The notes: generated by a model from the sequence alone, not told the origin. Positions 42,552-63,935 are shown, numbered from the stretch's first letter. The stretch: DNA of 64,000 nt from a virus (IMGVR_UViG_3300032307_000369:30875-94874); one strand, 5' to 3'. Program-made: numbers and translations.

Positions 42552-42598
42552 AATGAATGTGGGCCACGAACTACAATAACAATAAGGTTCAATTAGTT

Positions 42599-44126: not shown

Positions 44127-45246
44127 AAGCGATTTTACTTTACCAGACAAAACATACTTAAACAGTGCATCACAAACTTTAATTCCTAATCAAGTAAAAA
44201 ATTCCTACCTTGATATTTGTAATAAAATTGATGCAAGGAAAGAGTATGAAAATGTTAGACAAAAAGTAAAACTACTAATTAATTCTAAAAAAGATAATGA
44301 AGTAGTTTTTACTCAAGGCAACAATCATAGCATTAATATGATTGCCAAAAGTATTTGTCATAAATGGCATTCAAATGATTGTGTAATTGTTCCTGAAAGT
44401 GAGCATCATGCCAATTTACTCATTTGGCAATACATGTCAATTGAATACGGTTTTAGATTTGAAACTGTAAATGTTATCAAAGACGGCAGCATGGATCTTG
44501 GTCATCTTGAAGACTTGCTAGACAGTTGTGATGGTAAAATATTGTTCAGCATGAGTCACATATCCAACAGCATTGGATATGTACAGCCTGTTAAGAGTAT
44601 TTTTGACAAGGTTAAAGAGTATGACGGAATAACTCTACTAGATGCAAGTTTGAGCATTGGTAGAGAATTGATAGATGTGCAAGAGTTTAATATTGATTTT
44701 CTAACATTTACTGGTCATAAATTTTATGGTCCAACTGGTGTTGGTATATTATATGGCAAGCAAAAATATTTAGACAAGTTAGAGCCTACTATATTAGGCG
44801 ACAGTAATAGCACATTATTACCATGGAAATTAGAAATTGGTAAACCTAATATTGCAAGTGTAGTTATGTTAGGTTCAGCAATTGATTGGTTTACATCATA
44901 TGATTTAGAAAGTTTTCATACCTACGATAAACTTATGAATGCAAATTTTCAAATGATGTTAAATGAATTAGACTTTGTAGAAATATTTCATCCTGGTTAT
45001 TATAAGGGAGGATTAATTGGATTTAATCTACATGGACACCATCCTGCGTATGTGGGTGAATTTTTGTCTAATGAAGGTATTGTATTAAAATATGGACATT
45101 TGAATGCAAGACCTATTGTAGAAGAAAAGTTCCCAAATGGTATACTTAGATTAAGTTGGGCCTGCTATAATACTAAAGAAGACGTTGAACAATTAAGGCA
45201 AGGACTTATAAAATTCTACGATAAATATAGTTCTAAAAGGACATAA
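44098..45246 (+). CDS. sufS: cysteine desulfurase SufS (class V aminotransferase)
   Basis: FTGHKFYGPTGVGILYG carries the PLP-lysine motif. The N-terminus DFTLPDKTYLNSASQ resembles SufS DFP…YLDSAATS. The ATG at 44098 overlaps the sufD end. Confidence 0.7.
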   Translation: MNSKIFSKVKSDFTLPDKTYLNSASQTLIPNQVKNSYLDICNKIDARKEYENVRQKVKLLINSKKDNEVVFTQGNNHSINMIAKSICHKWHSNDCVIVPESEHHANLLIWQYMSIEYGFRFETVNVIKDGSMDLGHLEDLLDSCDGKILFSMSHISNSIGYVQPVKSIFDKVKEYDGITLLDASLSIGRELIDVQEFNIDFLTFTGHKFYGPTGVGILYGKQKYLDKLEPTILGDSNSTLLPWKLEIGKPNIASVVMLGSAIDWFTSYDLESFHTYDKLMNANFQMMLNELDFVEIFHPGYYKGGLIGFNLHGHHPAYVGEFLSNEGIVLKYGHLNARPIVEEKFPNGILRLSWACYNTKEDVEQLRQGLIKFYDKYSSKRT

Positions 45247-45249
45247 AAT

Positions 45250-45639
45250 ATGGCTTATTCTTCACAAGTAATTGATCATTATGAAAACCCTAGAAACGTA
45301 GGTTCATTTGATAAAAATGATAATGATGTTGGAACTGGTATGGTTGGAGCTCCTGCTTGTGGTGACGTTATGAAATTGCAAATTAAAGTTAATGAACAAG
45401 GTATTATTGAAGATGCAAAGTTTAAAACTTATGGGTGTGGTAGTGCTATTGCTAGTTCTAGTCTTGTCACCGAGTGGCTCAAGGGCAAGAACTTGGATGA
45501 GGCACAAGCCATTAAGAACTCAGATATCGCTACTGAACTTGCGTTACCGCCCGTTAAGATTCACTGTTCAATATTAGCAGAAGATGCTATCAAAGCCGCA
45601 GTAGCAGATTATAAAGCTAAACATGATAACACTATCTGA
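45250..45639 (+). CDS. iscU: Fe-S cluster scaffold IscU/SufU-like
   Basis: Three conserved Cys in the contexts [17 protein letters not shown] and HCS. Begins [17 protein letters not shown]. Confidence 0.8.
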
Positions 45640-45943: not shown

Positions 45944-46227
45944 ATCTTTCCAATTGGCAAAGTACTGCTAACTGGCATATCCCATATTTTTCTTTTAGTA
46001 ATGCCCATTCGTTGGGCAAATTTTTTGACGTCACAATCACCACATACGTGGAAATATTTGTTGCTGAGTCTTTTGGGATCTATTTTAGCATGATCTCTTG
46101 TAAAATCCTTGTCGCAATTGTCACAGCGAAACACATTGATTGTTTTTGTTCTAGTATACTGGTGTTCTTTTCCCAGTTTACTGCTTCGAACATACTTGGA
46201 AATTTCTTTAAAAGATCTTATGAACAT
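45940..46227 (-). CDS. small zinc-finger protein
   Basis: CDNCDK…HVCGDCD (a CxxC pair). Minus strand, its stop overlapping the iscA-like stop. Confidence 0.45.
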
Positions 46228-46308: not shown

Positions 46309-49300
46309 ATGGCAAGAAAAGACGTTAATATTGGTTTAACAGGTAACGATGGAACAGGTGACAGCATACGTGATGCGTTTTCCAAAGTTAATGCAAATTT
46401 CCAAGAACTTTACGCTAGTCAAGGTCTAGAGGCCGGACTAACATTTGATAACTTAGTTGACGTTATCAAACCACTTAGACCTAACACAGTTTTAGGCTTA
46501 GACAGCTTAGGAAAAACTATTGTTAGTAGAGATTTAGAAGCGGCTGTTGGTATTAGTATTGACACCGTCAGTGATCCGTCTAAGATAATCTTTAGTATTG
46601 CCAACGTTCAAATTAGACAAGACCCAACACCAACACTGTCAAACGTACTAGATGGAAGTGGGTTCAAACTAAGTTTCATTGGTGATCCAGAAAATGACCA
46701 AGATGCTGTTACTAGAAAATGGGTATACCAAAATTTCTTAAACAGAGATAACATTGACAAGTTAGGTACATTTGACCTAGCCGCTGGCAGTGTCATGCGT
46801 CAAAATTTCAAGATCAGTCCAACTCCAGATAACGGCAATATTAATGCTGGTACAAAAATTATTAATGTTTTTGGTTCAGATGGCGTTACACCAAAAACTG
46901 ATGTTCAGTTAAAGTTTCAAGCAACACACCCTGCTCATGCAACTCGAAAAGATTATGTAGATACCAAGCTGTCATTACAAGGTACTGAGACATTAGATCC
47001 AGCAACTGGCTTTGTAAACAAAGGCATGGGTGTGATGACAGGTCCATTGATTTTAAATGATCACCCTGGACAGTATGTTGAAATTGATAGGAAGCCAGAT
47101 GGCACACTGTTCGTACAAGAAGATTATAGAGCAGCCACAAGAGGGTATGTTGATTCCAAAACGTATTCTGCCGCAGGTAACATATTTGTCAGTACAAAAG
47201 GTAATGACGACATGTGGGATTTTGACAACAATCGTCCAAATCCCATTTATGGATATCCTGAGGAAGAAATTGGACGTAGTTGGAGTAAAGCATTTAAATC
47301 AGTAAATGCCGCGTGTCGTTATGCAACACGAATTATAGATGCTGTTGAATTACAAAATATTCCATATCAAGTTACTCCACAACAAATTTCACGTTGGGCT
47401 CCTCCATTTACAACGCCAATTACAAGTCCAAGAACTCGTGTGCGTGTTAGCTTACAAAATCACGGATTCAAAGATGGAGACTACGTTTTAGTTAGCGGAG
47501 CTATCTTAGGATCTTTAGACACAAGAAATTTAAACGGTATTCACAGAGTTAATGCGTTAGATGTTAACAATTTTGAATTAAATTTAAAATCACTGGTAAC
47601 ATGGCCAAATCCAGAAGTTGCACCTGGCGGCACTATTAGTATTTCGTTGGCTAATAAAAAGGACGGTCCTTACAGTGAAATTTCTAAGGTTGACTTTGGC
47701 TTTAGAGGATTCTTTGTACCAAAACCTGAAATTACTATTATGGTTGAATCAGGAGTTTACTTTGAAGAAGCTCCTATGTTTGTTCCACCAAACTGTGCTA
47801 TTAAGGGCGATGAATTTAGACGTACTTTAATTAAACCAAAGCCAGGACCAGTTAATCCTGATAATCAGCTTACTAAATTTGTTCGTGGTGATAGAAGTCA
47901 AAGTGCTACCTTTTGGTATAACTCACACTACTACAATCAATTGTCAAGATCAGTTGGAACCACTAACGTGGTTGGTAGTACAAAATTAGAAATTAAAAAT
48001 AGTCCTTATAGACCAAAGAGTGGTATGCGATTTATTGTGGGTACTCTTGGTGGTATACCAAACGTATATCGAGTTGGACGTGAAGTTAACATTGTTTACA
48101 AAGAACCAAATCCAGATTTAAATATTGCTCCTGGAACATATATCATGGACATCGTTGATGACAACGGTGATCCAAAACCATTGGCAACTGGTATTCCAGA
48201 TTCAACAACTATAGAATTCTTGTTAGACCACGAACACTGTGATGCCATGCTTGTTGCTGATGCATTCCAGTTGCGTAATATAACAGTTATAGGATTTAAG
48301 GGCTTTGCTATGGCCTTTGATCCTAAGAGACAAATTAAAACACGTTCTCCTTATGCTCAAGTTGGCGCTGTATTTGCTGGAGAAGGTGGTGGTGGTCAGT
48401 TGGTTGACGGTATGTCTGGTAACCAAGTATGTTATGTATTAGACACTAGTTATACTGATCCGTTTACTGGAACACAAGGTTCTAGTGGACTTAAAATGAC
48501 TGTTACTGGATTAGTACGTACTCCTGAAACTCCAAATACATTTTTCTTGGCTAAGAAAAAATATGTCATTATCGATTCCACAACTCCAGATTCCAACGGT
48601 ACTGCTACATTAACTTTAAGTACTACAACTCCAATTGAAGTTGATGATACTTATTTGCCTGCAGGTTTTATTCCAAACGGTTCTCAAATTTTAATTGAAA
48701 CTGCTGGTAACCGATCAATGTTGTCTAACGACTTTACCATGATTAACGATTTAGGTTATGGTCTTGTGTGTGAAAATAACGGTGTTGCAGAAGCAGTTAG
48801 TCAATTTACATACTATTGCCGTGCCAGCTATTTGTCTAGATCAGGTGGACAAATTCGTTCGGTAACAGGATCAAGTTGCTATGGTATTATTGGTTTACAA
48901 TCTGAAGGTAGCGATCCTAACGAAGCTATTCAGATTGGTAGAATTAAAACTGACATTGGTAACATCATGCAGGTTTACATTGATGATCCTAGTGCAGATG
49001 GCAACCAAGGTGCCGTAAGTTTGGTAATGGGAGGTTTGGCAAGTAAGCCTATAAGAAACTCTACATTCAAATTAACCAAACACGAAATCATTATTAAAAA
49101 TATTGCTCGAGCAAGATTGAGTGGTGGTACACTAACAACTGGGCCGCTAGTTGTAACAACATATTATCCTCATCCTTTCTCAACTGGAGAGAGTGTACAA
49201 ATGACCAGTGTGAGAGGATTGCAATTGCCTGCAATTCCTCCAAGTACTACCCCAAGAGCAACTGATGTTGATGGAAGAGTTTATACTATTACTTCTGTTA

Positions 49301-52300
49301 ACAGTCACACGTTTACATTAGATGGAAGTGAAAGCACTAATTATATAAATGATTTAGGAACTTATAATTTTGCTGACTTACCAGCTCGTGCTATATCTAA
49401 TCTAGTAATTGGAGCACAAGATGTTGTGTTTTCAATTAAGGGAGATCCTAGTCCATCTAATATTACAGGTAGAGCTAGATTTGATGGCATTCCAGGCGAA
49501 AACCAAGCTGGACAAAATGTATTAAAACTTCAACGACTACAGCGTCCAGCTGTTGTTGGAATGAAAACAACTATTCCTGGCGGAGTGTTGACCTACACTG
49601 TAACTGATGTTACTGAAAAAGTAGTTACATTTAAACCATCTCCAAGACCAGCACCTACTGGTGACAATGATAATAAAATTGGTGCACAAACCATTTATAT
49701 CTACACCACTACAGATATAACTACAGGTGCTATTAATGGCACAACACTTACTGCTACTAATTTAGATCAAAATAATGTTGGACAATTAGTCACAGGAGCC
49801 ACTGTAGCTGACAACACATACATTATAGCAGTGACCAGTCCTACAACAGCGACTGTGTCAATAAGTCAAACTGTTACTAACAGAACTTTAGAATTAAGTT
49901 GGGTTCCTAAAATAGGCTGGAGTTTCCAGCATTTAGACACCAACATGGGTCTACAGTTAAATTATACTAGATATACAATTACTGATACTCCAGTATATGA
50001 TGCTGTATCAAATAGATGGGCTGTTACCTTAGATGTTCCGCTAACAGTCAATATGCAAAATCAAGAAGCAACTGGTCAAACGACTATTGTTGACGGAATT
50101 TGGGACGTTACTTTAAACTATGATTTAGAAACAAGCATCGCTAACAGTGTAAACCCAGTATCATTTACGTTTGTTGATTCGTATTGGGTTACAAGCATTG
50201 ATCCGTCATTGACCAACCCAATACCTACTGTTACTGATGAATACAATAGAGTACGTGCTCGTAAGATTAATTTATATCAGCAAAAGACAATTAGTGTAAG
50301 TCAAATTTTAAACAGACCTGCTATTATTAACAGCTCTGCTTTAAGATTCTCATCTTCAAACTATGATCCAAGTATATATCGTATTTTAGGTAAAACTTCT
50401 GATGGCGGTATTACACAAGATAGATATGCTGTTACTACTACTATAAATCCACTTAGTGGTCTTAATACGAATGCTGTAGAGAAAGTATTAGCAAACAAAA
50501 CTTGGATACAGTCTGAAGTTATTAATTACTTGGCTACAATTTATCCTAATTTCCAATACAATGTTAACACTTGTTATCGTGACGTTGGATATATTATCGA
50601 TGCAGTACTTTATGACTTAACTTACGGCGGTAACGTAAGAAGCCGTGCCGCTGGTATTAGTTATTACCAACAAGGTAATCCAAGTGCGGCTCTTGTATTA
50701 AGTCAGCAAAAAGTAGAAACAATTGATGCAATTAATTTTGCGACCACTGCGGCAATAACTGCCTTAAATCAATATAGTGGCGCAACAGTACCTCAATTAC
50801 AACTACCATATCGTGGAAGTAATTTAAACGGTGTTGCACAATTACAGGCAAATAAACTGTTTATACAAGATGAAGTTATTGCATTCTTAGCACAAACATA
50901 TCCTACTTTACAGTTCAATCAAACTACTTGTCGTAGAGACGTTGGATTGATTATTGATGCTGTTGCATACGATTTAGAGTATGGTGGTAACGTGGCAACT
51001 AGAACGGCTGCTCTAGCATACTATGATGGATCAACAAGCTCACAGTATGTGTTGTCTAATCAAAAAACCCAAACCATTGCTGCCATTAACAGAGCATCTA
51101 CAGTTGCTCAACAAATTGTTTTAGAAACTGCTGTAACTGCGACTGCTGGCAACACTGCAACACAAAATACTGCTGGTACTCCTGGAGTTGCTGGTGTTGA
51201 TGACGTAAGAGTTCAAACATTAATGAACATTATTACTAATGTTCTACAAAATGGTACTTCTGTTGCTCCAACTAGAAATTTAGGAATTAGAAGAAGTTAT
51301 CAAGATCCTCTAGGTGTAGAGTATGCCCCACAAAGTATTGACAGTGGCATTGTAGCAGAAGCCGGTGCTGCCACAGCATTGCAAGCTCTAATGGACCAAA
51401 TTGTAGCCATAATTGAATTTGGCACTACAGGCCCGCATGTTGTTGTACAGCCACAAGTGTTAGATACTTTACAGGCAATTGATTTCCCACCAACTGCAAC
51501 ATCATTACAATATGGCGCAGTATTAACTGGTCCTGGAATTCCTAAAGCAGGAGTTAACGGCGTTACCGAAGATACATTTATTAGAACAGTGACTCAATTG
51601 TTTGATGAAAATCAAAATACAATTGGCTACAGAGCTAGAATTAGTGCGCCAGTAACACAAGCAATTCCTGCTGGTACAGAAATTGTTATTACTGGTCCTG
51701 GTAGTGACTTCTTATTTGATCTAAACACTCCACTAGACCTTAGACACTTAGCAGGCGATGTAATTGGTATCACTACCACATTCTCAACTGTACGTGCAAC
51801 TGGTCATGATTTCTTAAACGTTGGGGCAGGTGGATATGATGACTCTAACTATCCTAATAACGTTTATGGTCAACCAGTTAATACGCCATCTGACAGTGCA
51901 ATTGCTAAAGAGGTTGGGACTGGTCGTGTGTTCCACGTGTCAACTGATCAAAATGGTAATTTTAGAGTAGGTAGCTTCTTTAACGTTAACCAAGGTGACG
52001 GATCTGTTAGTATTAGTGCTAAAATTGGTTTAAGTGCTGTTACAAGTTTAAGTTTCTTAACTGGTGCAACCGTTAACCAATTCTCAACTGATTCTAAGTT
52101 AGACGACAATAGTGACAACATTGTTTCTACACAAAAGGCAATGAAGACCTACATCAATAACTTGATTGACGGTCGTTTTACAATTGACAATACTGATACT
52201 CCACAACGTGGTCTATTAAGACTTGACGGCGAAAGTATCATGGTTGGTGATTTAGATGTTGGTTTGAACAGTGTTGAACGTATAGTAAACAGTCCAAACA

Positions 52301-54843: not shown

Positions 54844-54880
54844 GATATCCTAAAATAAATAAGATGAACAGGAACGAAAA

Positions 54881-57800
54881 ATGAGCATTCAATACATAAA
54901 CATTGGTTCTAACGCAAATGACGGCACTGGCGATGATTTGCGAACTGCATTTTTAAAAGTAAATGATAATTTTCAATTACTTGCAACCATAGGTGGAGAG
55001 ACCAATATTGGTGCAAACCTTGGTGGTGGCGGGGGACAAGTTTACGCAGGTAAAACTAATGAAACACTTAATTTTAGAACAATTGCTGGTGATGTTAATT
55101 CAGGCATAACCGTAAATCAGTCTGGCAATGTTATTACGATTGCTAGTAATTTTAGTGTTCCTGCATCTATTACTACACTAATATCTGAAGATAACAGTGG
55201 TCAATTTACTACTACAAGCCCAGGAGCTACTTTTAGATTCAATGGCACTGGTGGCGTTACTACTAGTTTAAATGCTAATATATTGACCATTGACGGTCAA
55301 TTTGCACTAGTGCAAGATACGTTGCCTTTACTAGGCGGTAATTTAGATTTAAATGGAAGTAATATTACTGGTTTAGGTAATATTAGTATTGTTGGCAATA
55401 TCACTTCTGATAATTTAACTGTAGGAAGAATTGTAACTCCTGGAGTGTTTCCTGCAACTGCTACAATTAACGGTTCATTAACTGTTCGAGGATCAACAAG
55501 TTTACAAGCTGTTACTGCAACTTCTATCGTTACTAACAATATTATAACTGCACCAGGATTTACAGCAACAAGTGGTGCATTTACTGGCAACCTTACTGGT
55601 AACAGCACTGGAACACACTATGGCAACGTTGCCTTAAAAGTAGTTGATCCATTAGATCCTAACTATCCTGAAATAGTTATAGTTGATTCTGATACACAAA
55701 CAATAACTGGTTCACATTTTGGTACATTTAGTGGCGGTTTGACTGGTTCACTAATTACTGGCGGTCTAGCATTAGATGGTAATAGTATTACTGGTGAAGG
55801 TAGAATTGAAGTTACTGGTTCAGAAGTGCAAACTGGCACAATGGCATTTACTGTAAATGGAAGATTCCACGGTGGTGATTCACCTGCTGGCGTTGCTCCA
55901 GAAGCTGATCAAGGACCAGAGTCTGCCATGTTCACCATGACTCAACAGGTATATGGTTTTTCAGAGCCAATTCGATTAAGAACTGTAAGTAAGAACGGAA
56001 GCAATTCAATTCCACTTGGTCCTGGTATACGATTTGAATCTGTTAATGAAATTGATCCTAGTGATCCAACAACTTATGACCCATTAAATCCGCCAACACA
56101 ACCAGAATATGTTTTACATGGTTATTTGGGAGTGTTAAACTATGATAACGGTGCTGACACAAATCCCGATATAAGTGCATTTGTAGCTAGAGTTAGATCT
56201 GACGACGGTGACTTTGTACGTGATATTATTATTGCTAGAGGTGACAATCGTGTTAGTATTTCTGGGCTTGATATAGAAGATAGTAAAATTAGTCCAAAAT
56301 ATGATGAAATAGCTTCTGGAGTTTTTGGAATAACTCCATCTGATTTGATTATTACAAACGGAGCAAGTAATCATTATATTAACTTCTATGGAGAATATGA
56401 TCCAAATTTCCAAGATGAAGGTTTTGCAACTGGACCTGGCTACACTGGATATAGTTTTCCAAAAGTAATTGGTGCTCCTGGAGAAGTATTAACTGTACAA
56501 TTAGGAACCAACTTACTAACTTGGGCCACACCAGGTGGTGGTGGCGGTGGTGGTGGAACAACTTTACTAAACTTGACTGATGTTCCAGACAGTTACGCTA
56601 CTCATGCTGGCAAACTTTTAAGAGTTAAGTCGACCAGTGACGGAATAGAATTTACAAATAGTTTTAATGCCACAGTTACTGGTAGTTTAATTGGAAATGC
56701 TAGTACAGCGACTGCCTTACAAACTGCTAGAACAATCAATGGGTTTACCTTTGATGGTACACAAGATGTAACTATTGACACTCGTCAGATTGAAGAACTA
56801 AGACAAGTAGCCTCAAATGCCAATATAGTTGGAAGTGGTGGCAGCATTGTATCAACTATAAATATTACCACCTTAGAATCTAACCTAGACGTTAATTTTG
56901 GAGAACCTTCAACTAATCAAGGTGCTAGAAAATTTAGAGTAGGCATGGACATTAAGGGAACACAGATCAGTAATCCAGTTATTACGAATATTTCATTAAC
57001 TGGTGGAACATTCCCAACTCCAAATAATGATAGAACTGTCGTTATAACAGTCACATTTGATGCACAAGTGGTCAATGCTGAGAGTAATATTACTATCACT
57101 GGTGAAGTGCAAAATCAGTGGTTTAATGATGAAAAAGTTAGATCTGTATTCAGTGTGAGCCCTGGCAGTGCATTATCGTATACAAGTTCATTGGGGCTGT
57201 TTGCACTTAATGATTCAGTATCAAATGTCAATAACACACTGGTAAGAAGAAATGGTAGTGGGCAAGTTTTCCTTGGCACTGCTTATGTTAGCACACTAAC
57301 AAAAAATAGTGCTGATACTGAAATAACTGTAACAAGTCCAATTTCTACTAATTCTAGTATAACATCATCTGCAAATATTACCACAACAGGCAGTGTTATT
57401 GCTGGGTTTATAACACTGACTGGAACAGGTAATCAAACTATTTCATCTAGTGCTGGCACTAATATTATTTTGCAACCTGGAACAAGTGTTGATTTAAGCG
57501 GTAAGAAAATAACAAATCTTTCAATTGCGGCTCCAACAGCAGACAGTGATGCGGCAAGTAAAAAATATGTTGACGATGAAATCCAAGGTTTATTTGAAGA
57601 AACTTTTCAAGAATTACCTGTATCTGGAGATACTGGTGGCACGTTAAATGTACAGCGAAGTGCAATTTTTACAGTTGCAGGTAGTTCAAATATTTCTACA
57701 TCGACCACCGGTACTGGTGTTCAAATAAATTTAAAAAATACAATTTCTGGAGTCAGTGTTAGTGGAAACTTACCAGTTACTGGAAACGTAACAAGCTCAG

Positions 57801-58297
57801 GCGGGTTTATAAAAGGTGGTAATGTTAAAATAGATGGCAATGCTGTTACACAAACTGTTAATGGTAGTGATTTAAATCTAGTCCCTGGAGATTTAGGTGG
57901 TTCTGTTGTAGTAAGTGGTAGTGATTTAAAACTAGTAAACAGTAGACTATTCCTTAATGGTTCTGACACAATGGAGTTTCCACCTAATACATTAGAACAA
58001 AGTGTTACATTAGTTACTGCTACTACGTTTATTAGAACTGCCAACTGGGTTGATGATTCAGCAGGACTAGCCTATGCTTCCATAGCTAACGGTACACCTG
58101 GACAAATTAAGACAATTATTATGGCTAGTCGTGGCACGTACGGTAATGCGCTAGACACAAGACCTAGATATTTGATATTAAGTGGTAACATTAATGGAGC
58201 CACTAGAACTGTAAACATTGCCGCTTCTGATCCTAACGGTTCAACAACGTTCTTGTTTTTGAACAACAGTTGGTGGCGAATTGCTCATGTGGCGTAA
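54881..58297 (+). CDS. large fibre-like structural protein (1138 aa)
   Basis: N-terminus IGSNANDGTGDDLRTAFLKVNDNF is homologous to the start of the 2844-aa protein. Gly/Thr/Asn-rich beta-repeat composition. Contains a poly-Gly tract (GGGGGGGG) at 56534-56557. Confidence 0.7.
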   Translation: MSIQYINIGSNANDGTGDDLRTAFLKVNDNFQLLATIGGETNIGANLGGGGGQVYAGKTNETLNFRTIAGDVNSGITVNQSGNVITIASNFSVPASITTLISEDNSGQFTTTSPGATFRFNGTGGVTTSLNANILTIDGQFALVQDTLPLLGGNLDLNGSNITGLGNISIVGNITSDNLTVGRIVTPGVFPATATINGSLTVRGSTSLQAVTATSIVTNNIITAPGFTATSGAFTGNLTGNSTGTHYGNVALKVVDPLDPNYPEIVIVDSDTQTITGSHFGTFSGGLTGSLITGGLALDGNSITGEGRIEVTGSEVQTGTMAFTVNGRFHGGDSPAGVAPEADQGPESAMFTMTQQVYGFSEPIRLRTVSKNGSNSIPLGPGIRFESVNEIDPSDPTTYDPLNPPTQPEYVLHGYLGVLNYDNGADTNPDISAFVARVRSDDGDFVRDIIIARGDNRVSISGLDIEDSKISPKYDEIASGVFGITPSDLIITNGASNHYINFYGEYDPNFQDEGFATGPGYTGYSFPKVIGAPGEVLTVQLGTNLLTWATPGGGGGGGGTTLLNLTDVPDSYATHAGKLLRVKSTSDGIEFTNSFNATVTGSLIGNASTATALQTARTINGFTFDGTQDVTIDTRQIEELRQVASNANIVGSGGSIVSTINITTLESNLDVNFGEPSTNQGARKFRVGMDIKGTQISNPVITNISLTGGTFPTPNNDRTVVITVTFDAQVVNAESNITITGEVQNQWFNDEKVRSVFSVSPGSALSYTSSLGLFALNDSVSNVNNTLVRRNGSGQVFLGTAYVSTLTKNSADTEITVTSPISTNSSITSSANITTTGSVIAGFITLTGTGNQTISSSAGTNIILQPGTSVDLSGKKITNLSIAAPTADSDAASKKYVDDEIQGLFEETFQELPVSGDTGGTLNVQRSAIFTVAGSSNISTSTTGTGVQINLKNTISGVSVSGNLPVTGNVTSSGGFIKGGNVKIDGNAVTQTVNGSDLNLVPGDLGGSVVVSGSDLKLVNSRLFLNGSDTMEFPPNTLEQSVTLVTATTFIRTANWVDDSAGLAYASIANGTPGQIKTIIMASRGTYGNALDTRPRYLILSGNINGATRTVNIAASDPNGSTTFLFLNNSWWRIAHVA

Positions 58298-58300
58298 AAT

Positions 58301-61300
58301 ATGACCGTAAAACCTATTTGGATTACATCTTCAGGAAGTTTAGGAAGTTTTGAACAAAGCCAACCTATCACTCCAATTGTGTTGGAAGTGGCCAATGCCA
58401 ACGAAGTAAAAATTATTTCCAAAACATTGCCTAATGGCTTAAAACTTGATTCAGTAACCAAAACAATTACTGGGGTTCCACTTGATAGTGGGATTACAAA
58501 AACCTACGACTTTGTTGTTAGAGCAAGTATTGTAGATGTTGATGGTAAGACTTATATACAGGATAGAACTTTCAACATTACAATTATTAGTAATGCTCAG
58601 CCAATACTACTAACTCCTCCTGGTGCAATATCTATTGGGTTGAATAAAGAAAACTTTGTTTTAAACAAATCAATAGTTAATTTTCAATTTGATGCTGTAG
58701 CTAATAGTGTTCCACCTGGACAAAAATTAAAATTTTATTTAGAAGAAAATAAAGGAGAATTACCTCCTGGACTCAAATTATCAGAAGAAGGTCTTCTATA
58801 CGGGACAATTGATGATGATTTGGAATTAGATTTCAAAGTTGTTCAAGGAACATATGATAGAGATTTTTATGACATTAATCCCTATGACTATGGAACTCCA
58901 ATTGAGCCAGCTAGAGGTATAACAACTGTTGCTAATGGGAAAATACAATCTGCATCAGTTACCTATGGCGGCAATGGATATTTGCTAGATCCAAAAATTA
59001 TTGTAGGTGGTAGTGTAGATTTTAGCTCTATTGTTATCACTGATGGTGGAAATGGTTATACCGTTGCACCAACAGTTGTTTTTAGTAATAGTTTAACCAT
59101 TGGCGGAATTACTGCAACAGGATATGCTGAAATATCAAACGGATCTGTTACTAACATCGTTATAACAAATCCTGGAACAGGATATGAAGTTGCCCCAACA
59201 ATTATATTCAAAGATCAAAATACAGGTAGTGGAGCAAGTGCTACATGTGAGTTACAATTAGGATTAGACGGTGCTCTTATTGCAAGAGTCACTAACGGAA
59301 CTGTTGTTGATATTGATATTGCAAATCCTGGTAGTGGATACCAAACAGCTCCTGCAATAAGTTTTGGTGCTCCAACAGCAGGATCTAGAATTATATCTAA
59401 AACTTATAAGTTTTCTTTGACAGTTGCTAATGGTGAATTAACTGACACTAAAATTTATACCATTTTTGTAAAGAGTGAAAATTCTTTACGTGTCGATACT
59501 ACATTTATCTTTTCAGATACTGTTGACTTTGATACTAGTAGAACATATATTCAACCACCAATTTGGATTACCCCAAACACACTTCCAATTGTAAAAGGCA
59601 ACAACAACTACATATATGATTTAGAAGTATTTGATCCAACACCTACTGTAGGAAAATTATATTTTGGTCTATTAGATTTTAATTTTGACGGTACTCCTAG
59701 TGAGTTTGGTCCAAGAAATAATGAGAGAAATCAAATCACGCATAATATAGTACATGTTGATTTAGAATCTCCAGTGCTATTAACACTATCACAACGACAT
59801 ACTTTTAAAGATAGCGATCGAGTTAGAATTTCAAATGTTGGCGGTACTACTGAGCTTAACGATGATGTGTATTATATCAAAGTAATTAGTGAAATTCAAA
59901 TTGCTTTATATTCTGACGTGGTGTTAGTAAACCCAATTGTGGGCACATTCTTTAATGCCTACACAAGTGGTGGTAAAGTAAATCCTGAAGAAAACTATTT
60001 AAAATTGGACCCTGTTGGTGGGGAAATCAATGGATTCATTCCATACCAACCAAGTGTGACAAAAACTTATACCTTCACTGTTCAAATACAAAGAATTTTA
60101 GATGATGTTGAAGTAGCAAATTCTTTTAAACAATTTCAGTTAACAGTAGAAGGAAATATACAAGGGGACATTAATTTCGTTACTCCAACACTTGTTGGAA
60201 CATTAAAACCAAACGAACAAAGTTTGTTAAAAATTGAAGCTGAATCTACGTTACCTTCAGCATCTGTAATATATGACCTTATACCTGGATATGGTAAAAC
60301 TTCAGGAGTAAACTATATTGAGTTGAATCTAACAGAATATCGCGGAAATATTCTAATTGAAAATTATGGTATAAATCCAGTAGTAATTTTAGAAAAAGGA
60401 CAAAGCTACAAAATTAATGTAGACTTAGATAACTTTACGGTAGGATTTAAAAATATTGATGGATCATACTACAATAGTGGACTTAGACACAGCACAGGAG
60501 TTGTTGGGCAGGCTGCACAAGAAAAGTCTAATGGCTATTATATTTTTATTCCTCCATTTAATGAAACTGATAAAATTGAATTAGTATATACTAATATCAA
60601 AAAAGACGGACTATTCCTAGCATTAAAAAAATATAACATTGATACAAAAGAATGGGATCGTCAAATTATCAACTCATATTTTACAGAATATGATGCTTAT
60701 ACTAATTTAACAAAACAAATCAACTCTAATCAAGATGCTCATGCTGTAATTTTAGATTATACAAAAATTCAATTTGGTATTAAGAAATATAATACTGGAA
60801 CACTTACATGGGATCTTGTAAATATTCCCGTTACAAAGCCAACAAATCCTACGTCAAATTCATACTGGTTAGATCTTGCTGAAAGTAGCTTTGGAGTTTT
60901 AGAATTTAGATATTTTGGATTGCAAGGTCGTTGGGTATCAGTTAGTATGTCTGTTGTTACAACTATGCCAAATAACAGCGAAGGGGTCAATGGGAACTAT
61001 AAAATATTTAACGATGCTGGCACCTATAAAGTACTTAGAAAAATTAATGGTGTTTGGAAAATTATAGAAAGATTGCCTATCGAAACAAAGACTGCATTTG
61101 ATCCAAACGTGTTCTTTAAACCAGCAATTGCTACTGCACCTGTTACAAATTTACAATACGATGTTTGGTTCAAATACAATGCGTTGTATGACGGGCTAGA
61201 CAAAAAAATTACAGTCAATTTAAAGAGTTTAGATAATCTTCCTACAGATATTTCAATTGGTCTTGGTGGAGATATCATTGGTAAAATTACTCCAACTACT

Positions 61301-62542
61301 GGCAACACCTTTAAAGGCTACTACAGTAGCAACGTTTTGTACGTGGCTAACGATGTTGTCACATTTAATAATTCTTTATATATTTGTGTAAACCAATATA
61401 GATCTACTGGTAATTGGTATCAAGAATTGTCTAATTGGAATAGTTTTGCGTATACTAAACGTGTTGCTACCACAATTGACGTTAACAGCTATGGTGTTGC
61501 AAAGTTCAGTATCCACGGTATAAATGACGACGGCACTTCGATAGATCAACTTTTAAGATTTAGAATTAGAGCTAGAGACACGCAAAATGTTAGCTCTTTA
61601 GAAAAAGATTTTACTATTGCTTATGAAAGCAGTACTGTAACATCATTAACTAACATATATCTACAACCGTTTTTAGGAAAAGAAAGTAGAGATAGATATT
61701 TTAATTTTATTACAGATACTAATATTTTCTTATCTGATAGTTTGTATAGATCAGAAGATCCAAATTTTGGTATTCAACGTGTTCCTAAGATGTTACTTCT
61801 TGGAGGTATTGAAAATACAAAGTCTGACAATTATGTCAGTGCTGTTCAAAGAAATTATTATGACAGACCTTTGTATTTTGGTGATATAAAAGTTGCTATT
61901 GCTAAAAACGAAGACAAGTTAGAATACGAAGTTATATATGTAGAAATTAACGATCCGTATGAGATTAATAATGTAAGTGTTTCTGATAAAATTAAATTAG
62001 CATTTGATTATGATCCTCTTACCGTTGATTATAGTAAAATTAGAGTTGATGATTCTAGTGTAGTTGCTACTGATACAGGCTTAGACACAATATATCCAAG
62101 TAGTATTACACTCATGCAAGACGCATTAAAAAAGGTCATGCTTGAAACATCTGACAGTGTATTAGTAACTCCAAACTATGAAGATTGGGGAGGAATTATA
62201 GGAGCAAGTTCTGAACTTGATGATTGGGGTCTGGTTGCAGAACGAGTTTCACTAGTTGACGATTTCTTACTTGCAAGAAATAGTATAGGATTTGACGTTA
62301 AATACCGTCCGCTATGGATGAATACTAGCCAAGATGGCACAGGAAACCCAGTGGGTTATGTTAAAGCCATACCAATTTGCTATGTCAAACCTGGTGAAAG
62401 TGCAAAAATATTGCGATTAATTGAAAGAAGCAAGTTTGATTTTAAACTGCTAAATTTCAAAATTGATAGAATAGTAATTCAAAATCCTCTAGGTGAAACC
62501 GGGGATAAATATATAAAGTTTATTAACAGGGAAATTATATGA
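58301..62542 (+). CDS. large fibre-like structural protein (1413 aa)
   Basis: Starts 4 nt after the previous stop. Carries ITNPGTGYEVAPTIIF / IANPGSGYQTAPAISF repeats like those in the 2844-aa protein. Confidence 0.7.
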   Translation: MTVKPIWITSSGSLGSFEQSQPITPIVLEVANANEVKIISKTLPNGLKLDSVTKTITGVPLDSGITKTYDFVVRASIVDVDGKTYIQDRTFNITIISNAQPILLTPPGAISIGLNKENFVLNKSIVNFQFDAVANSVPPGQKLKFYLEENKGELPPGLKLSEEGLLYGTIDDDLELDFKVVQGTYDRDFYDINPYDYGTPIEPARGITTVANGKIQSASVTYGGNGYLLDPKIIVGGSVDFSSIVITDGGNGYTVAPTVVFSNSLTIGGITATGYAEISNGSVTNIVITNPGTGYEVAPTIIFKDQNTGSGASATCELQLGLDGALIARVTNGTVVDIDIANPGSGYQTAPAISFGAPTAGSRIISKTYKFSLTVANGELTDTKIYTIFVKSENSLRVDTTFIFSDTVDFDTSRTYIQPPIWITPNTLPIVKGNNNYIYDLEVFDPTPTVGKLYFGLLDFNFDGTPSEFGPRNNERNQITHNIVHVDLESPVLLTLSQRHTFKDSDRVRISNVGGTTELNDDVYYIKVISEIQIALYSDVVLVNPIVGTFFNAYTSGGKVNPEENYLKLDPVGGEINGFIPYQPSVTKTYTFTVQIQRILDDVEVANSFKQFQLTVEGNIQGDINFVTPTLVGTLKPNEQSLLKIEAESTLPSASVIYDLIPGYGKTSGVNYIELNLTEYRGNILIENYGINPVVILEKGQSYKINVDLDNFTVGFKNIDGSYYNSGLRHSTGVVGQAAQEKSNGYYIFIPPFNETDKIELVYTNIKKDGLFLALKKYNIDTKEWDRQIINSYFTEYDAYTNLTKQINSNQDAHAVILDYTKIQFGIKKYNTGTLTWDLVNIPVTKPTNPTSNSYWLDLAESSFGVLEFRYFGLQGRWVSVSMSVVTTMPNNSEGVNGNYKIFNDAGTYKVLRKINGVWKIIERLPIETKTAFDPNVFFKPAIATAPVTNLQYDVWFKYNALYDGLDKKITVNLKSLDNLPTDISIGLGGDIIGKITPTTGNTFKGYYSSNVLYVANDVVTFNNSLYICVNQYRSTGNWYQELSNWNSFAYTKRVATTIDVNSYGVAKFSIHGINDDGTSIDQLLRFRIRARDTQNVSSLEKDFTIAYESSTVTSLTNIYLQPFLGKESRDRYFNFITDTNIFLSDSLYRSEDPNFGIQRVPKMLLLGGIENTKSDNYVSAVQRNYYDRPLYFGDIKVAIAKNEDKLEYEVIYVEINDPYEINNVSVSDKIKLAFDYDPLTVDYSKIRVDDSSVVATDTGLDTIYPSSITLMQDALKKVMLETSDSVLVTPNYEDWGGIIGASSELDDWGLVAERVSLVDDFLLARNSIGFDVKYRPLWMNTSQDGTGNPVGYVKAIPICYVKPGESAKILRLIERSKFDFKLLNFKIDRIVIQNPLGETGDKYIKFINREII

Positions 62543-63156
62543 GCTCAAGCGCCATTGTTTACACAACAATTAACGAAAACTTTCCAGCCGCAGGGCAGGA
62601 TAATGATTCACAAGGTTTTAGAGATAACTTTGCTAGAGTCAAAACTGCATTAGGTACAGCACAAAGTGAAATCACTTATCTAAATAATAATGCTGTTGAT
62701 AAAACACAGAATAACGATATGGGTAACAATACCCTAAGTAATGTGATTTTAAAAAATTATGGAATCGTAAGTAACACAGCATTAACATCTGCTGCCGCAA
62801 CCAGTGTTATTACCTTCAGTGAATCTCAATATAGAAGATACAGCTTAGGTAACAATACAAACATTTTTCAAATTGATAACTGGCCCGTTGGTTGTTATTC
62901 TGAAATGTTTCTTGAGGTAGTTTCTGCAAGTGGAACCAAACAAATTAGATTCCAAACAGGTGTTATTAATAATAGCTTAGGGACTCCAGTTAAAAATATG
63001 CATTTAGGCGAAGGCTTTGGAAATAATGCGTATGTGGACTGCACTAGATTAGATAACTCAAATAGATTACAAACTTATCTATTTAAAGTTGCTACACCTG
63101 ATGGTGGAGTAAACACTTATGTATCACTTGTTGATATGTTTAAACAGCAGGCTTAA
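62539..63156 (+). CDS. hypothetical protein, possibly structural or assembly
   Basis: ATGA-coupled to the giant gene. Asn/Thr-rich. Confidence 0.5.
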   Translation: MSSSAIVYTTINENFPAAGQDNDSQGFRDNFARVKTALGTAQSEITYLNNNAVDKTQNNDMGNNTLSNVILKNYGIVSNTALTSAAATSVITFSESQYRRYSLGNNTNIFQIDNWPVGCYSEMFLEVVSASGTKQIRFQTGVINNSLGTPVKNMHLGEGFGNNAYVDCTRLDNSNRLQTYLFKVATPDGGVNTYVSLVDMFKQQA

Positions 63157-63389
63157 TGCATCCATTACAAGTAAATCTTGAAAATCTAACTGACAGTGAG
63201 TTAGAAGATAAAATAAAAGAGCTAACCAAAAAGTACTTTGTAGTACTACAGGTTAGCCCTTCAGCATCAACGCAAGTATTGATGTTATTAGAAGATTACA
63301 AAAGCGAACAATCAGCAAGAGAACACAAACGACAAAACCACAAATCAGATCTAGGCGATGAATTTGATGGTTTGATTAATATTGGTTGA
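63156..63389 (+). CDS. hypothetical protein (77 aa)
   Basis: TAATG coupling. Confidence 0.4.
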   Translation: MHPLQVNLENLTDSELEDKIKELTKKYFVVLQVSPSASTQVLMLLEDYKSEQSAREHKRQNHKSDLGDEFDGLINIG

Positions 63390-63413
63390 CATTTTTGTAA
63401 ATTCATATATAAT
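63386..63413 (+). promoter_or_regulatory. sigma70-like promoter, TTGACA-N16-TATAAT
   Basis: Consensus hexamers directly upstream of the ATG at 63420. Confidence 0.45.
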
Positions 63414-63419
63414 ACTGTA

Positions 63420-63935
63420 ATGCACAGTAATCAATATGGACAAGTTTTTAGGAATGAGCAAGAAGTTTTAGACTTGATGCTCCAAGATCCTAATTTAGAT
63501 ATTTCCAAAATAAATTTTGAAAGTCTCGATCTTGTTAATCTTTTTAACGAGTCAGCAAGTCGTTGTGGCATAAATGTAAGCATACAGACTGCAAATGAAA
63601 TCACTCTTGATGTAATTGAATTCGATAAACAAAATCAAGCTGATTGGTTTATGCCTAAAGATCATTGCCCAAATTTGATAGAAACATTAATTAATCAATG
63701 TAACACTGAAGAACAAAGACAGCGGGTTGAGTTAGAACTAGAGCTATATATTAAGCATGGAATGATTGACTTACTGCATTTCATGAAGTATTTGGTTGAC
63801 ACCCTTAGAAAAAATAATGTCGTTTGGGGTGTTGGCAGGGGTTCTAGTGTAGCAAGTTACATATTATATTTGATAGGAGTTCATAAGGTTGACAGCATTA
63901 AATATAATTTAGACATTAATGAATTTCTAAAATAA
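63420..63935 (+). CDS. protein with DnaE-like (Pol III alpha palm) GRGS motif, standalone 171 aa
   Basis: VVWGVGRGSSVASYILYLIGVHKVDSIKYNLDINEFL parallels DnaE [26 protein letters not shown]…ERFL. There is no PHP domain upstream and the ORF ends at TAA 63933-63935. Confidence 0.4.
   Translation: MHSNQYGQVFRNEQEVLDLMLQDPNLDISKINFESLDLVNLFNESASRCGINVSIQTANEITLDVIEFDKQNQADWFMPKDHCPNLIETLINQCNTEEQRQRVELELELYIKHGMIDLLHFMKYLVDTLRKNNVVWGVGRGSSVASYILYLIGVHKVDSIKYNLDINEFLK

What the first reader, a model, noticed from the sequence alone, without database searches (positions are those of the whole stretch)
46309..62542. Three consecutive giant proteins (2844, 1138, 1413 aa) sharing an N-terminal NDGTGD…KVNxNF module and GYxxAPxIxF Ig-like repeats
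The first two proteins begin with the same roughly 40-aa module: IG…NDGTGD(S/D)(I/L)R.AF.KVN.NF(Q)(E/L)L. The first and third share repeated (I/V)TN.G.GY..AP.(I/V).F units: 52640-53070 in the first and 58950-59400 in the third. The first also ends in a conserved-looking C-terminal module (…YADLAENYQADFAYEPGTVLEF…CKVRGKISKGDL…) that resembles the intramolecular-chaperone or assembly domains of phage fibres. Together they occupy 16 kb, a quarter of the window, and probably form a very large fibre, whisker or decoration system. The shared N-terminal module might be a common baseplate or capsid attachment adaptor.
Basis: seen in the sequence. Interest (0 to 1): 0.6.

Follow-up and report, generated by a model that had tools for sequence, protein, structure and literature searches.

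The report
Giant tail-fibre gene cluster of phage
Three huge neighbouring genes in an uncultured marine phage most likely encode its host-grabbing tail fibres: two carry the anchor that phage T4 uses on its baseplate proteins, and the largest ends in a folding-helper domain that is probably cut off after assembly. This is a known design at unusual size.

Summary
There are three co-oriented ORFs of 2844, 1138 and 1413 aa, here P1, P2 and P3. They are under strong purifying selection and conserved as a trio in related metagenomic phage contigs.

- **N-terminal module (P1, P2).** It is the N-terminal segment of the T4 gp9/gp10 family. P1 passes Pfam PF07880; P2 matches T4 gp10 at E=4e-4. In T4 this segment is the trimeric hub of baseplate-peripheral proteins.
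- **"GYxxAP" repeats.** They are real, four units each in P1 and P3 (E=1e-15). They model confidently as an all-β module with no significant PDB match, so "Ig-like" is not supported.
- **P3.** It lacks the anchor and is an adhesin-like He_PIG protein.

Cleavage and baseplate attachment are inferred, not shown. Interest is moderate.

The parts
46002..46028 (+). Terminator-like hairpin plus T-run between the upstream NifU-like/106-aa genes and P1. Likely upstream boundary of the fibre transcription unit.
   Evidence: Consensus scan only. Hairpins are not enriched over shuffles, so this is weak evidence.
46309..54843 (+). P1, a 2844-aa giant modular fibre protein.
   Evidence: ORF. PHROG tail-fibre families phrog_9851, 5342, 4527 and 19602. 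93% identical orthologue in L002, dN/dS 0.06. A 2855-aa counterpart in L051 has the same two ends and shuffled internal modules.
46309..46443 (+). P1 aa 1-45: T4 gp9/gp10-type N-terminal module (INIG..NDGTGD..R.AF.KVN.NF), the presumed trimeric anchor.
   Evidence: Pfam PF07880, 28.8 bits against GA 25, profile positions 1-41 of 175. 3483 cluster representatives, nearly all at residue 1 of the protein. It heads cyanophage gp9 connectors.
46444..47355 (+). P1 aa 46-349: proximal region, conserved together with the anchor in the distant L051 giant.
   Evidence: BLASTP P1 1-349 against L051 1-364, 38% identity, E=4e-55.
47431..47613 (+). P1 aa about 375-435: FCCH-like small beta-barrel motif (H.F..GD.V.V...LNG..).
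   Evidence: Motif scan. Assigned only by analogy with the P3 unit that hits Pfam E1_FCCH.
49141..49338 (+). P1 aa about 945-1010: second FCCH-like motif.
   Evidence: Motif scan.
50470..51120 (+). P1 aa 1388-1604: tandem duplicated module (NK..IQ.EV...L...YP...FN...C.RDVG.IIDA..YDL.YGGN), shared with cyanophage tail or 'short tail fibre' proteins.
   Evidence: Read from the translation. tblastn to S-RIM32, S-PM2 and S-H9-1. phrog_5342 and phrog_4527.
51763..52161 (+). P1 aa 1819-1951: tail-fibre module shared with P-SSM2, S-CAM1 and pelagiphage Mosig fibres. It is the most conserved stretch of P1.
   Evidence: phrog_9851, E=3.9e-49. tblastn. 99% identity to L002 and dN/dS 0.01.
52591..53118 (+). 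P1 aa 2095-2270: four GY units ((I/V)..(I/V).(I/V).N.G.GY..(A/P)P.(I/V).(F/L)).
53509..54474 (+). P1 aa about 2401-2722: distal shaft, the most variable part of P1. It would be the fibre tip after removal of the C-terminal domain and is the candidate receptor-binding region.
   Evidence: 86-88% identity to L002 against 93% overall; dN/dS 0.08-0.10. The functional assignment is inference.
54475..54480 (+). Codons for A2723|D2724, the predicted autocleavage site.
   Evidence: The invariant ADLAE aligns with phi29 gp12 S691|D692-F-A-E695. Cleavage itself is not shown.
54478..54840 (+). P1 aa 2724-2844: phi29-gp12-type beta-stranded C-terminal auto-chaperone-like domain.
54881..58297 (+). P2, a 1138-aa second fibre protein.
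   Evidence: ORF. phrog_1833 tail fibre and phrog_677 gp9-type connector, the latter weak. Orthologues of 46-92% identity. dN/dS 0.14.
54881..55012 (+). P2 aa 1-44: second copy of the gp9/gp10-type N-terminal module.
   Evidence: phmmer against PDB: T4 gp10 residues 3-60, E=3.9e-4; gp9-type connector 9f4a_LN, E=0.15. Pfam PF07880 at 18.7 bits, below GA.
55778..57430 (+). P2 aa about 300-850: fast-evolving centre and a candidate host-range determinant.
   Evidence: 59-76% identity to L002 against 91-97% at both ends; dN/dS 0.13-0.24.
58301..62542 (+). P3, a 1413-aa multidomain protein without the anchor module.
   Evidence: ORF. Full-length orthologues of 51-95% identity. dN/dS 0.06.
58301..58900 (+). 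P3 aa 1-200: He_PIG (cadherin-like Ig) domains, part of the family core.
   Evidence: Pfam PF05345, 42.5 bits against GA 24. The family profile hits the He_PIG-like SRR adhesin 4m03. Aligns to an 858-aa homologue.
58910..59386 (+). P3 aa 204-362: four GY units. This is an insertion relative to the 850-1000-aa homologues.
   Evidence: AF2 pLDDT 89 and pTM 0.77, all-beta. No significant PDB fold match. tblastn hits 349 cultured phage records, mostly cyanomyovirus virion structural proteins.
59780..59980 (+). P3 aa 494-560: FCCH-like beta-barrel.
   Evidence: Pfam PF16190, E=1.1e-6, 29.0 bits against GA 29.5.
60290..61534 (+). P3 aa 664-1078: lineage-specific insertion containing a weak CBM_5_12-like motif (aa 1008-1041, nt 61322-61423).
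   Evidence: Absent from the 858-aa homologue. Pfam PF02839, E=0.007, below GA.
61535..62539 (+). P3 aa 1079-1413: conserved C-terminal core of the P3 family, fold unknown.
   Evidence: 31% identity to P0161 569-854, E=5e-43. No PDB sequence match.
62539..63156 (+). P4, a 205-aa fourth gene of the unit. Its start overlaps the P3 stop (ATGA). It carries a different conserved N-terminal motif (NFP..GQDN.SQGFRDNF..K.AL).
   Evidence: The same motif heads the 504-aa fibre-like protein after the P3 homologue in L051. dN/dS 0.05. No Pfam, PHROG or PDB hit.
63386..63413 (+). Perfect sigma-70-type promoter match (TTGACA-16-TATAAT) after P4. Likely start of the next unit.
   Evidence: Consensus scan, 12/12.

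Best explanation
The region is the tail-fibre (host-adsorption) gene cluster of a large (about 215-245 kb), uncultured marine myovirus related to T4-like phages.

P1 and P2 are homotrimeric fibres. Their first 40-60 residues form the N-terminal hub that T4 uses in gp9 and gp10. By analogy with gp9, whose trimer docks on a loop of wedge protein gp7, this hub plugs each fibre directly into the periphery of the baseplate. The connector and the fibre are therefore one polypeptide.

P1 is a mosaic of swappable modules between two conserved ends. Its last 121 residues are a phi29-gp12-type auto-chaperone. This domain would nucleate trimerisation from the C-terminus and then be removed by autocleavage at A2723|D2724. 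That would expose the variable distal shaft (aa about 2400-2722) as the receptor-binding tip.

P2 is a shorter fibre whose fast-evolving centre probably sets a second specificity.

P3 (He_PIG Ig domains, GY module, FCCH barrel, CBM-like insertion) and the small P4 are accessory virion proteins of the same unit. They are probably adhesin-like or fibre-associated.

Shown: the homologies, the fold match, the motif conservation, the synteny and the purifying selection. Inferred: trimer state, baseplate docking, cleavage, receptor binding and the virion location of P3 and P4.
For: Phage context. rIIA, rIIB and an RnlA-like gene lie in the window. IMG/VR viral contigs carry the same trio.

Fibre nature. 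PHROG tail-fibre families hit P1 and P2. tblastn finds tail-fibre proteins of P-SSM2, S-CAM1, pelagiphage Mosig and Campylobacter phages.

Anchor.
- PF07880 above the gathering score for P1.
- T4 gp10 and a gp9-type connector as the PDB hits for P2.
- The module sits at residue 1 in almost all of 3483 cluster representatives, many of them 2000-3400 aa.
- It heads cyanophage gp9 connectors.
- T4 gp9 docks on gp7 domain III.

Chaperone.
- Model pLDDT about 90.
- A|DLAE is invariant and aligns with gp12 S691|DFAE695.
- The domain is always the last 120-134 aa.
- It occurs inside fibre gene clusters and at the C-terminus of PA5oct gp359, a virion protein by MS, and of the CP21 tail fibre.
- It is 97-98% conserved while the adjoining shaft is the most variable part of P1.
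- phi29-type and marine Dpo31 D4 domains are released after folding (PMC4690869, PMC13317679).

Unit.
- Gaps between the genes are 37 nt, 3 nt and an overlap.
- A terminator-like site lies before P1 and a promoter after P4.
- P2 and P3 orthologues come from contigs of the same lengths.
- dN/dS is 0.05-0.14.
Against: - No virion or expression data exist. All database copies are 'hypothetical protein' from metagenomes.
- The similarity to gp9/gp10 covers only the first 40-60 residues (profile positions 1-41 or 2-59 of 175). P2 is below Pfam's threshold.
- In T4 the gp10 copy of this module seats gp12 rather than binding gp7, so the docking partner here is uncertain.
- No gp7-like gene, or any other baseplate gene, is in the 64-kb window.
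- The C-terminal domain does not match Pfam Peptidase_G2 or gp12 by HMM or hhalign.
- The residue before the predicted scissile bond is Ala, not Ser.
- P3 has no fibre hallmark.
Confidence: 0.7

Rival explanations
1. The C-terminal domain of P1 is not a cleaved chaperone. It is a retained capsid-binding (decoration or 'cement'-type) domain. P1 would then be a head fibre, or a fibre tethered to the capsid, like phi29 gp8.5 whose base has the same fold.
Confidence: 0.1
2. The C-terminal domain is the retained receptor-binding tip of P1.
For: Distal C-terminal domains of many fibres bind receptors. PA5oct gp359, which carries the domain, was detected in virions by MS, although the record does not say which peptides.
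Against: The domain is 70-78% identical among otherwise unrelated fibre proteins of many phages. It is 97-98% conserved where the adjoining shaft varies. This is the opposite of what is expected for a host-range determinant.
Confidence: 0.08
3. The proteins are not tail fibres. They would be baseplate wedge components (giant gp7-like 'wedge initiators'), or neck or whisker fibres.
For: P1 1320-1604 matches a DSL-LC03 protein annotated 'baseplate wedge initiator'. The GY region of P3 hits proteins annotated 'neck protein' or 'head closure'.
Against: These annotations refer to shared promiscuous modules, not to full-length homology. No PDB or PHROG match to T4 gp7 or fibritin was found. The gp9/gp10 module is peripheral to the wedge in T4.
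Confidence: 0.08
4. The shared motifs are a compositional coincidence of G/S/T/N-rich proteins.
For: All three proteins are rich in G, T, S and N.
Against: Composition-adjusted BLASTP gives E=6e-7 and 1e-15. Independent Pfam and PDB hits support the N-terminal module. The motifs are conserved in orthologues.
Confidence: 0.01

Closest known systems
T4 gp9 (baseplate-fibre connector) and gp10 (wedge protein), Pfam PF07880 T4_gp9_10_N
   Same: The sequence motif is the same at the extreme N-terminus (IG...(D/N)(G/A)(T/S)GD..(R/F)..(G/F).K(I/V)N.(N/D)F). T4 has two paralogous carriers, and two carriers lie in this window. Both are peripheral, trimeric baseplate proteins that hold fibres.
   Different: Only the first 40-60 residues match. 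The gp9 middle and C-terminal domains and gp10 domains II-IV are not detected. Here the module is fused directly to fibres of 1138 and 2844 aa instead of to a 288-aa connector or a 602-aa wedge protein. The genes lie away from any baseplate genes, between Fe-S assembly genes and a DNA pol III alpha fragment.
phi29 gp12 pre-neck appendage C-terminal auto-chaperone (D4; MEROPS/Pfam Peptidase_G2; PDB 3GQH, 3SUC), and D4 of marine podovirus Carin-1 Dpo31
   Different: There is no HMM-level sequence similarity to Peptidase_G2. The domain is shorter (121 aa against about 163). Ala rather than Ser precedes the Asp. It is attached to a fibre rather than to a beta-helical tailspike. Cleavage and ATP dependence are untested.
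Peptidase_S74 intramolecular chaperone (K1F endosialidase, T5 pb1, GA-1 appendage)
   Same: Same proposed role: a C-terminal, self-removing trimerisation chaperone of fibres and spikes.
   Different: The fold differs (an elongated helical body with tentacles) and so does the catalytic dyad (Ser-Lys). There is no Pfam match here. PMC4690869 itself contrasts the phi29 type with the S74 type.
Capsid decoration or cement proteins with the same fold (HFTV1 capsid stabilisation protein, phi29 gp8.5 head-fibre base, TW1 gp56, Pam3 cement)
   Different: These are whole proteins or N-terminal bases that sit on capsid three-fold sites. They have no DxAE boundary motif and a different genomic context.
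Giant tail-fibre-like proteins of T4-like cyanophages and pelagiphages (P-SSM2 'tail fiber-like protein', S-CAM1 and S-CAM3 tail fibre, Mosig EXVC030M), and the PA5oct gp355-gp359 cluster
   Same: They share internal modules (P1 aa 798-1950 in pieces). The GY module is common in cyanomyovirus virion structural proteins. PA5oct also has a giant virion protein next to a gp10-like fibre protein and a protein ending in the same C-terminal domain.
   Different: No cultured phage covers more than 9% of P1 or 18% of P3. The P3 core and P2 are absent from cultured phages. The combination of gp9/10 anchor, giant mosaic shaft and G2-like domain in one polypeptide was not seen in the cultured set.

Membership tests
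T4_gp9_10_N (Pfam PF07880) | Sequence match to the family HMM above the gathering score | tested here: met
   P1 aa 1-100 scores 28.8 bits (GA 25), E=1.6e-6, and 25.4 bits for aa 1-400. P2 scores only 18.7 bits, E=0.0019. P2 also matches T4 gp10 residues 3-60 by phmmer at E=3.9e-4 and is 59% identical to P1 over 34 aa.
T4_gp9_10_N (Pfam PF07880) | Match over the whole N-terminal plus middle domain (about 175 positions), as in gp9 and gp10 | tested here: not met
   Only profile positions 1-41 (P1) or 2-59 (P2) align. The whole proteins find no gp9 or gp10 chain in the PDB.
T4_gp9_10_N (Pfam PF07880) | Trimer that docks on baseplate wedge protein gp7 (gp9) or seats a fibre (gp10) | not testable with these tools
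   No gp7-like gene lies in the window, and no multimer prediction tool is available. The T4 facts come from PMC3004832 and bioRxiv 10.64898/2026.03.06.709160.
Peptidase_G2 / phi29 gp12 auto-chaperone | Match to Pfam PF11962 | tested here: not met
   PF11962 covers gp12 643-854 (E=2.6e-97) but gives no hit for the P1 C-terminus at E<=10. hmmsearch and hhalign of the family alignment against gp12 find nothing.
Peptidase_G2 / phi29 gp12 auto-chaperone | Beta-stranded D4 fold | tested here: met
Peptidase_G2 / phi29 gp12 auto-chaperone | Acidic motif at the scissile bond (gp12 S691|D692-F-A-E695) at the domain boundary | tested here: met
   P1 has A2723|D2724-L-A-E2727, invariant in 51 homologues. 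It aligns with the gp12 motif in Smith-Waterman (gp12 sequence). That D692 and E695 are catalytic is my recollection of Xiang et al. 2009. The paper was not held.
Peptidase_G2 / phi29 gp12 auto-chaperone | Extreme C-terminal position on a trimeric adhesin | tested here: met
   The motif lies 120-134 aa before the stop codon in P1, the L051 giant, four short fibre-cluster proteins, CP21_009 and PA5oct gp359.
Peptidase_G2 / phi29 gp12 auto-chaperone | Autocleavage after trimerisation and (ATP-dependent) release | not testable with these tools
   This needs protein expression or virion mass spectrometry.
Peptidase_S74 intramolecular chaperone | Pfam match, helical fold and Ser-Lys dyad | tested here: not met
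   No Pfam hit. The model is all-beta. No S74 structure appears among the fold hits.
Capsid decoration / cement proteins (beta-tulip type) | Fold | tested here: met
Capsid decoration / cement proteins (beta-tulip type) | Stand-alone or N-terminal domain encoded with the capsid genes | tested here: not met
   The domain is always C-terminal. Its neighbours are fibre, collar and gp10-like genes.
Ig-like domain (claimed for the GY units) | Pfam Ig-type match or an Ig-like fold | tested here: not met
   No Pfam hit at E<=10. The confident model (pLDDT 89) has no PDB match at E<=1e-3. The best weak hits are the outer domains of the T4 sheath protein gp18 (E=0.24, TMq 0.32).
He_PIG (Pfam PF05345) for P3 | HMM match above the gathering score | tested here: met
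   P3 aa 38-76 scores 42.5 bits (GA 24). Most family members are annotated PF05345.

The most novel reading that the evidence does not exclude
The C-terminal domain of P1 is not discarded. It has the fold of capsid decoration proteins and of the phi29 head-fibre base, so it could dock reversibly on the phage's own capsid. The 2844-aa fibre, anchored to the baseplate through its gp9-type N-terminus, would then be stowed along the tail until triggered. This would be a built-in equivalent of the whisker-assisted retraction of T4 long tail fibres. It would also explain why the domain is so conserved across phages. A milder version: this domain family (>2600 members, no Pfam model) is a new, very abundant branch of self-cleaving fibre chaperones, with a cleavage site (A|DLAE) predictable from sequence.
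Probability: 0.06. Interest if true: 0.75.

Novelty: new variant of a known kind. Interest (0 to 1): 0.4.

Why it matters
Adsorption proteins decide which hosts a phage can infect. For the abundant uncultured marine myoviruses they are mostly unannotated 'hypothetical' giants. This analysis gives three practical handles.

1. A gp9/gp10-type N-terminal hub marks baseplate-attached fibres, including thousands of proteins of 2000-3400 aa.
2. A compact C-terminal domain has a sequence-predictable cleavage motif. It marks the true end of the mature fibre, and therefore where the receptor-binding tip should be sought.
3. A recurrent 'GY' beta module has no solved structural relative.

Neither the C-terminal domain nor the GY module has a Pfam model, so both could be added to annotation resources. 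The biology itself (modular fibres, anchors, auto-chaperones) follows known principles.

Tried and rejected
- Megablast of 12 kb against cultured phages found no match.
- Whole-protein phmmer of P1, P2 and P3 against PDB sequences found nothing useful. Only a short N-terminal query found gp10.
- A profile of the C-terminal family against PDB sequences found nothing. hmmsearch and hhalign against phi29 gp12 also found nothing. The link to gp12 therefore rests on fold plus motif, with pairwise z=4.0 only.
- Xiang et al. 2009 (PMC2692858) is not held. Two literature searches for the catalytic residues were fruitless.
- A P3 family profile against the PDB found only He_PIG-like Ig domains, so a gp7 identity for P3 is not supported.
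- I suspected that the P2 C-terminus resembles the gp9 middle domain or the gp34 N-terminal sandwich. A PDB search gave nothing, and I dropped the idea.
- The T4 late-promoter motif TATAAATA is not enriched (3 found, 6.3 expected) and is absent upstream of P1.
- I could not reach the rest of the 245-kb genome to look for baseplate genes or further PF07880 copies. The tools return only ±10 kb around a query protein.

Full report
**What is there.** Three long ORFs lie head to tail on the + strand. P1 is 46309..54843 (2844 aa from the first ATG; the ORF opens at TTG 46279). P2 is 54881..58297 (1138 aa). P3 is 58301..62542 (1413 aa). The gaps between them are 37 nt and 3 nt. A fourth ORF, P4 (62539..63156, 205 aa), overlaps the P3 stop codon. 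A terminator-like hairpin lies at 46002-46018 before P1. A perfect TTGACA-16-TATAAT match lies at 63386-63413 after P4. These are consensus matches only, but they fit a single P1-P4 unit.

The window is phage-like. It carries rIIA, rIIB and an RnlA-like ligase, and it also holds many cellular-type genes (see 'noticed in passing'). The exact proteins occur on a 245,550-bp metagenomic contig and are all labelled 'hypothetical'.

**Reality of the genes.** IMG/VR contigs L001-L003 (one of them 214,617 bp) carry the same trio with near-identical lengths. Amino-acid identity to the window is 93% for P1, 84% for P2 and 93% for P3. dN/dS is 0.06, 0.14 and 0.06, and 0.05 for P4. All four are therefore functional coding genes.

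P2 diverges mainly in its centre (aa about 300-850). P1 diverges most at aa about 2400-2700. Full-length orthologues of P3 (51-95% identity) and of P2 (46-92%) come from contigs of matching lengths. I take these to be the same contigs, so the pair is conserved across a broad clade.

A more distant 228,945-bp contig (L051) keeps the synteny SufC, SufBD, a 2855-aa giant, a 986-aa P3-like protein, a 504-aa fibre-like protein and then a DNA pol III alpha fragment. It has no P2 at that place. Its giant shares P1's first 349 aa (38% identity), its last 138 aa (64%) and several internal modules in a different order. P1-type proteins are thus mosaics between two conserved ends.

**The shared N-terminal module.**
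- P1 1-34 and P2 1-34 share 20 of 34 residues (E=6e-7). These are the only two copies in the window.
- A 70-aa query from P2 finds T4 gp10 residues 3-60 in the PDB (E=3.9e-4). It also finds a second T4-like gp10 and, weakly, a gp9-type 'baseplate wedge tail fiber connector'.
- Pfam PF07880 (T4 gp9/10-like, N-terminal) is passed by P1 (28.8 bits, GA 25). P2 falls below it (18.7 bits). Only profile positions 1-41 or 2-59 of 175 align.
- A full HMMER scan of 1.84 billion cluster representatives with P1 1-45 finds 3483 at E<=1e-3. Almost all have the match at residue 1, and many are 2000-3400 aa long.
- In cultured phages the module heads the cyanomyovirus 'gp9 baseplate wedge tail fiber connector'.

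In T4 the gp9 trimer docks through its N-terminal domain on a loop of gp7 domain III. The first 200 residues of gp10 are a paralogue of the gp9 N-terminal and middle domains, and they seat gp12 coaxially. gp10 itself holds gp7 through its C-terminal domain IV (PMC3004832 and bioRxiv 10.64898/2026.03.06.709160).

P1 and P2 show no gp10 domain IV. The gp9-like mode, with the N-terminal hub plugged into the wedge, is therefore the more economical inference. The partner is unknown, because no baseplate gene lies in the window.

**The C-terminal module of P1.** The last 125 or so residues have 2665 database relatives at E<=1e-3. Many are proteins of 200-420 aa that are 70-78% identical over this stretch only. 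A 51-sequence alignment has 37 invariant columns, including A-D-L-A-E. There is no Pfam model and no PDB sequence match.

In phi29 gp12 (sequence) the mature protein ends at Ser691 (PMC4690869), so the released domain starts '...NTWS|DFAEYFES'. P1 reads '...SANYA|DLAENYQAD'. Smith-Waterman aligns the two motifs (z=4.0 against shuffles, so the sequence signal alone is marginal).

The motif lies 120-134 aa before the stop codon in every carrier I examined. These are P1, the L051 giant, four short proteins inside fibre gene clusters, Campylobacter phage CP21 tail fibre CP21_009, and Pseudomonas phage PA5oct gp359. The last is a virion protein by MS and sits next to a gp10-like fibre gene and a 3857-aa virion protein.

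The phi29-type domain is a beta-stranded auto-chaperone, distinct from the S74 type (PMC4690869). A marine podovirus tailspike has the same D4 domain, starting at an Asp, and loses it on expression (PMC13317679).

These facts together favour a self-removing trimerisation chaperone with a predicted cut at A2723|D2724:
- the terminal position of the domain;
- the boundary motif;
- the fibre-cluster context;
- very high conservation (97-98% to L002) next to the most variable stretch of P1 (86-88%).

Membership of Peptidase_G2 fails at the HMM level. That D692 and E695 are the catalytic residues of gp12 is my recollection only. Cleavage is not shown.

**The GY units.** There are four units in P1 (aa 2116-2240) and four in P3 (aa 224-352). 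The two regions are 39% identical (E=1e-15). In P3 they form an insertion relative to the 850-1000-aa family members. They are conserved in all full-length orthologues.

The region hits 349 cultured phage records, mostly cyanomyovirus 'virion structural proteins'. It has no Pfam match. The AlphaFold2 model of P3 196-379 is confident (pLDDT 89, pTM 0.77) and all-beta. Foldseek finds nothing at E<=1e-3. The best weak hits are the outer domains of the T4 sheath protein gp18 (E=0.24, TMq 0.32). 'Ig-like' is therefore not supported. This is a recurrent phage surface module with no solved relative.

**P3 and P4.** P3 has true Ig-type He_PIG domains at its N-terminus (PF05345). It also has an FCCH-like barrel just under threshold, a weak CBM_5_12-like motif inside a lineage-specific insertion (aa 664-1078), and a conserved C-terminal core of unknown fold. 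It has no anchor module, and its core is absent from cultured phages. Its make-up suggests an adhesin-like accessory virion protein, but its location is unknown.

P4 starts with a different conserved N-terminal motif (..GQDN.SQGFRDNF..K.AL). The same motif heads the 504-aa fibre-like protein in L051.

**Verdict.** This is a tail-fibre cluster in which two fibres carry a T4 gp9/gp10-type N-terminal hub. The giant one ends in a phi29-gp12-type, probably self-cleaving, chaperone.

The components are known kinds. What is unusual is their combination and scale:
- a connector hub fused to a 2844-aa mosaic fibre;
- the abundance of a C-terminal domain family without a Pfam model;
- a GY module with no structural relative.

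I rate it a new variant of a known kind, of moderate interest.

Noticed in passing
window 3616-5505: A full-length DnaK (Hsp70), 66-68% identical to bacterial DnaK, is encoded on a phage-like contig (phrog_22485).
   Followed up: partly
window 16495-18540: A 681-aa protein has a CHASE2 sensor domain followed by an adenylate/guanylate cyclase catalytic domain. This is an unusual signalling gene for a phage.
   Followed up: no
window 9995-15145: A run of envelope or secretion-type genes: CsgG-like curli-transport domain plus SH3 (9995-11233), a FecR-domain protein (12315-13421) and an F5/8 type C (discoidin) domain protein (13418-15145).
   Followed up: no
window 42557-45639: A complete-looking Fe-S cluster assembly block lies immediately upstream of the fibre genes: SufC, SufBD, a SufS-like class-V aminotransferase and a NifU-like scaffold. 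The same Suf genes precede the giant fibre gene in the distant relative L051.
   Followed up: partly
window 37761-38381 and 39927-40466: ClpP protease (PF00574, E=8e-65), which PHROGs calls 'head maturation protease', and a QueD-like 6-pyruvoyl-tetrahydropterin synthase.
   Followed up: no
window 63420-63935; L051 15138-15659: A 171-aa ORF matches only a fragment of DNA polymerase III alpha (phrog_11127; Pfam DNA_pol3_alpha in L051). It is conserved in position after the fibre cluster. It may be a split or remnant polymerase gene.
   Followed up: no
proteins P0241-P0245, P0244, P0338: A few database proteins carry the gp9/gp10-type N-terminal motif as 3 to 31 internal tandem copies rather than once at the N-terminus. 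One example is a 3315-aa protein with 31 matched stretches. This is unexplained.
   Followed up: no
window 62539-63156; L051 12988-14502: A second conserved N-terminal motif (NFP..GQDN.SQGFRDNF..(V/I)K.AL) heads the small P4 protein and a 504-aa repeat-rich fibre-like protein in L051. It may be another attachment adaptor.
   Followed up: partly
L055 8001-8912 and about 16214: Two different proteins in one fibre gene cluster each end in the ADLAE domain. One phage can therefore use the module on several fibres.
   Followed up: partly
L059 (Pseudomonas phage PA5oct 45600-66000): A cultured jumbo phage has an analogous layout: baseplate wedge subunits, a 3857-aa virion protein, a gp10-like 'long tail fiber distal subunit', and a 478-aa virion protein ending in the same C-terminal domain. 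All were detected by MS according to the record.
   Followed up: partly
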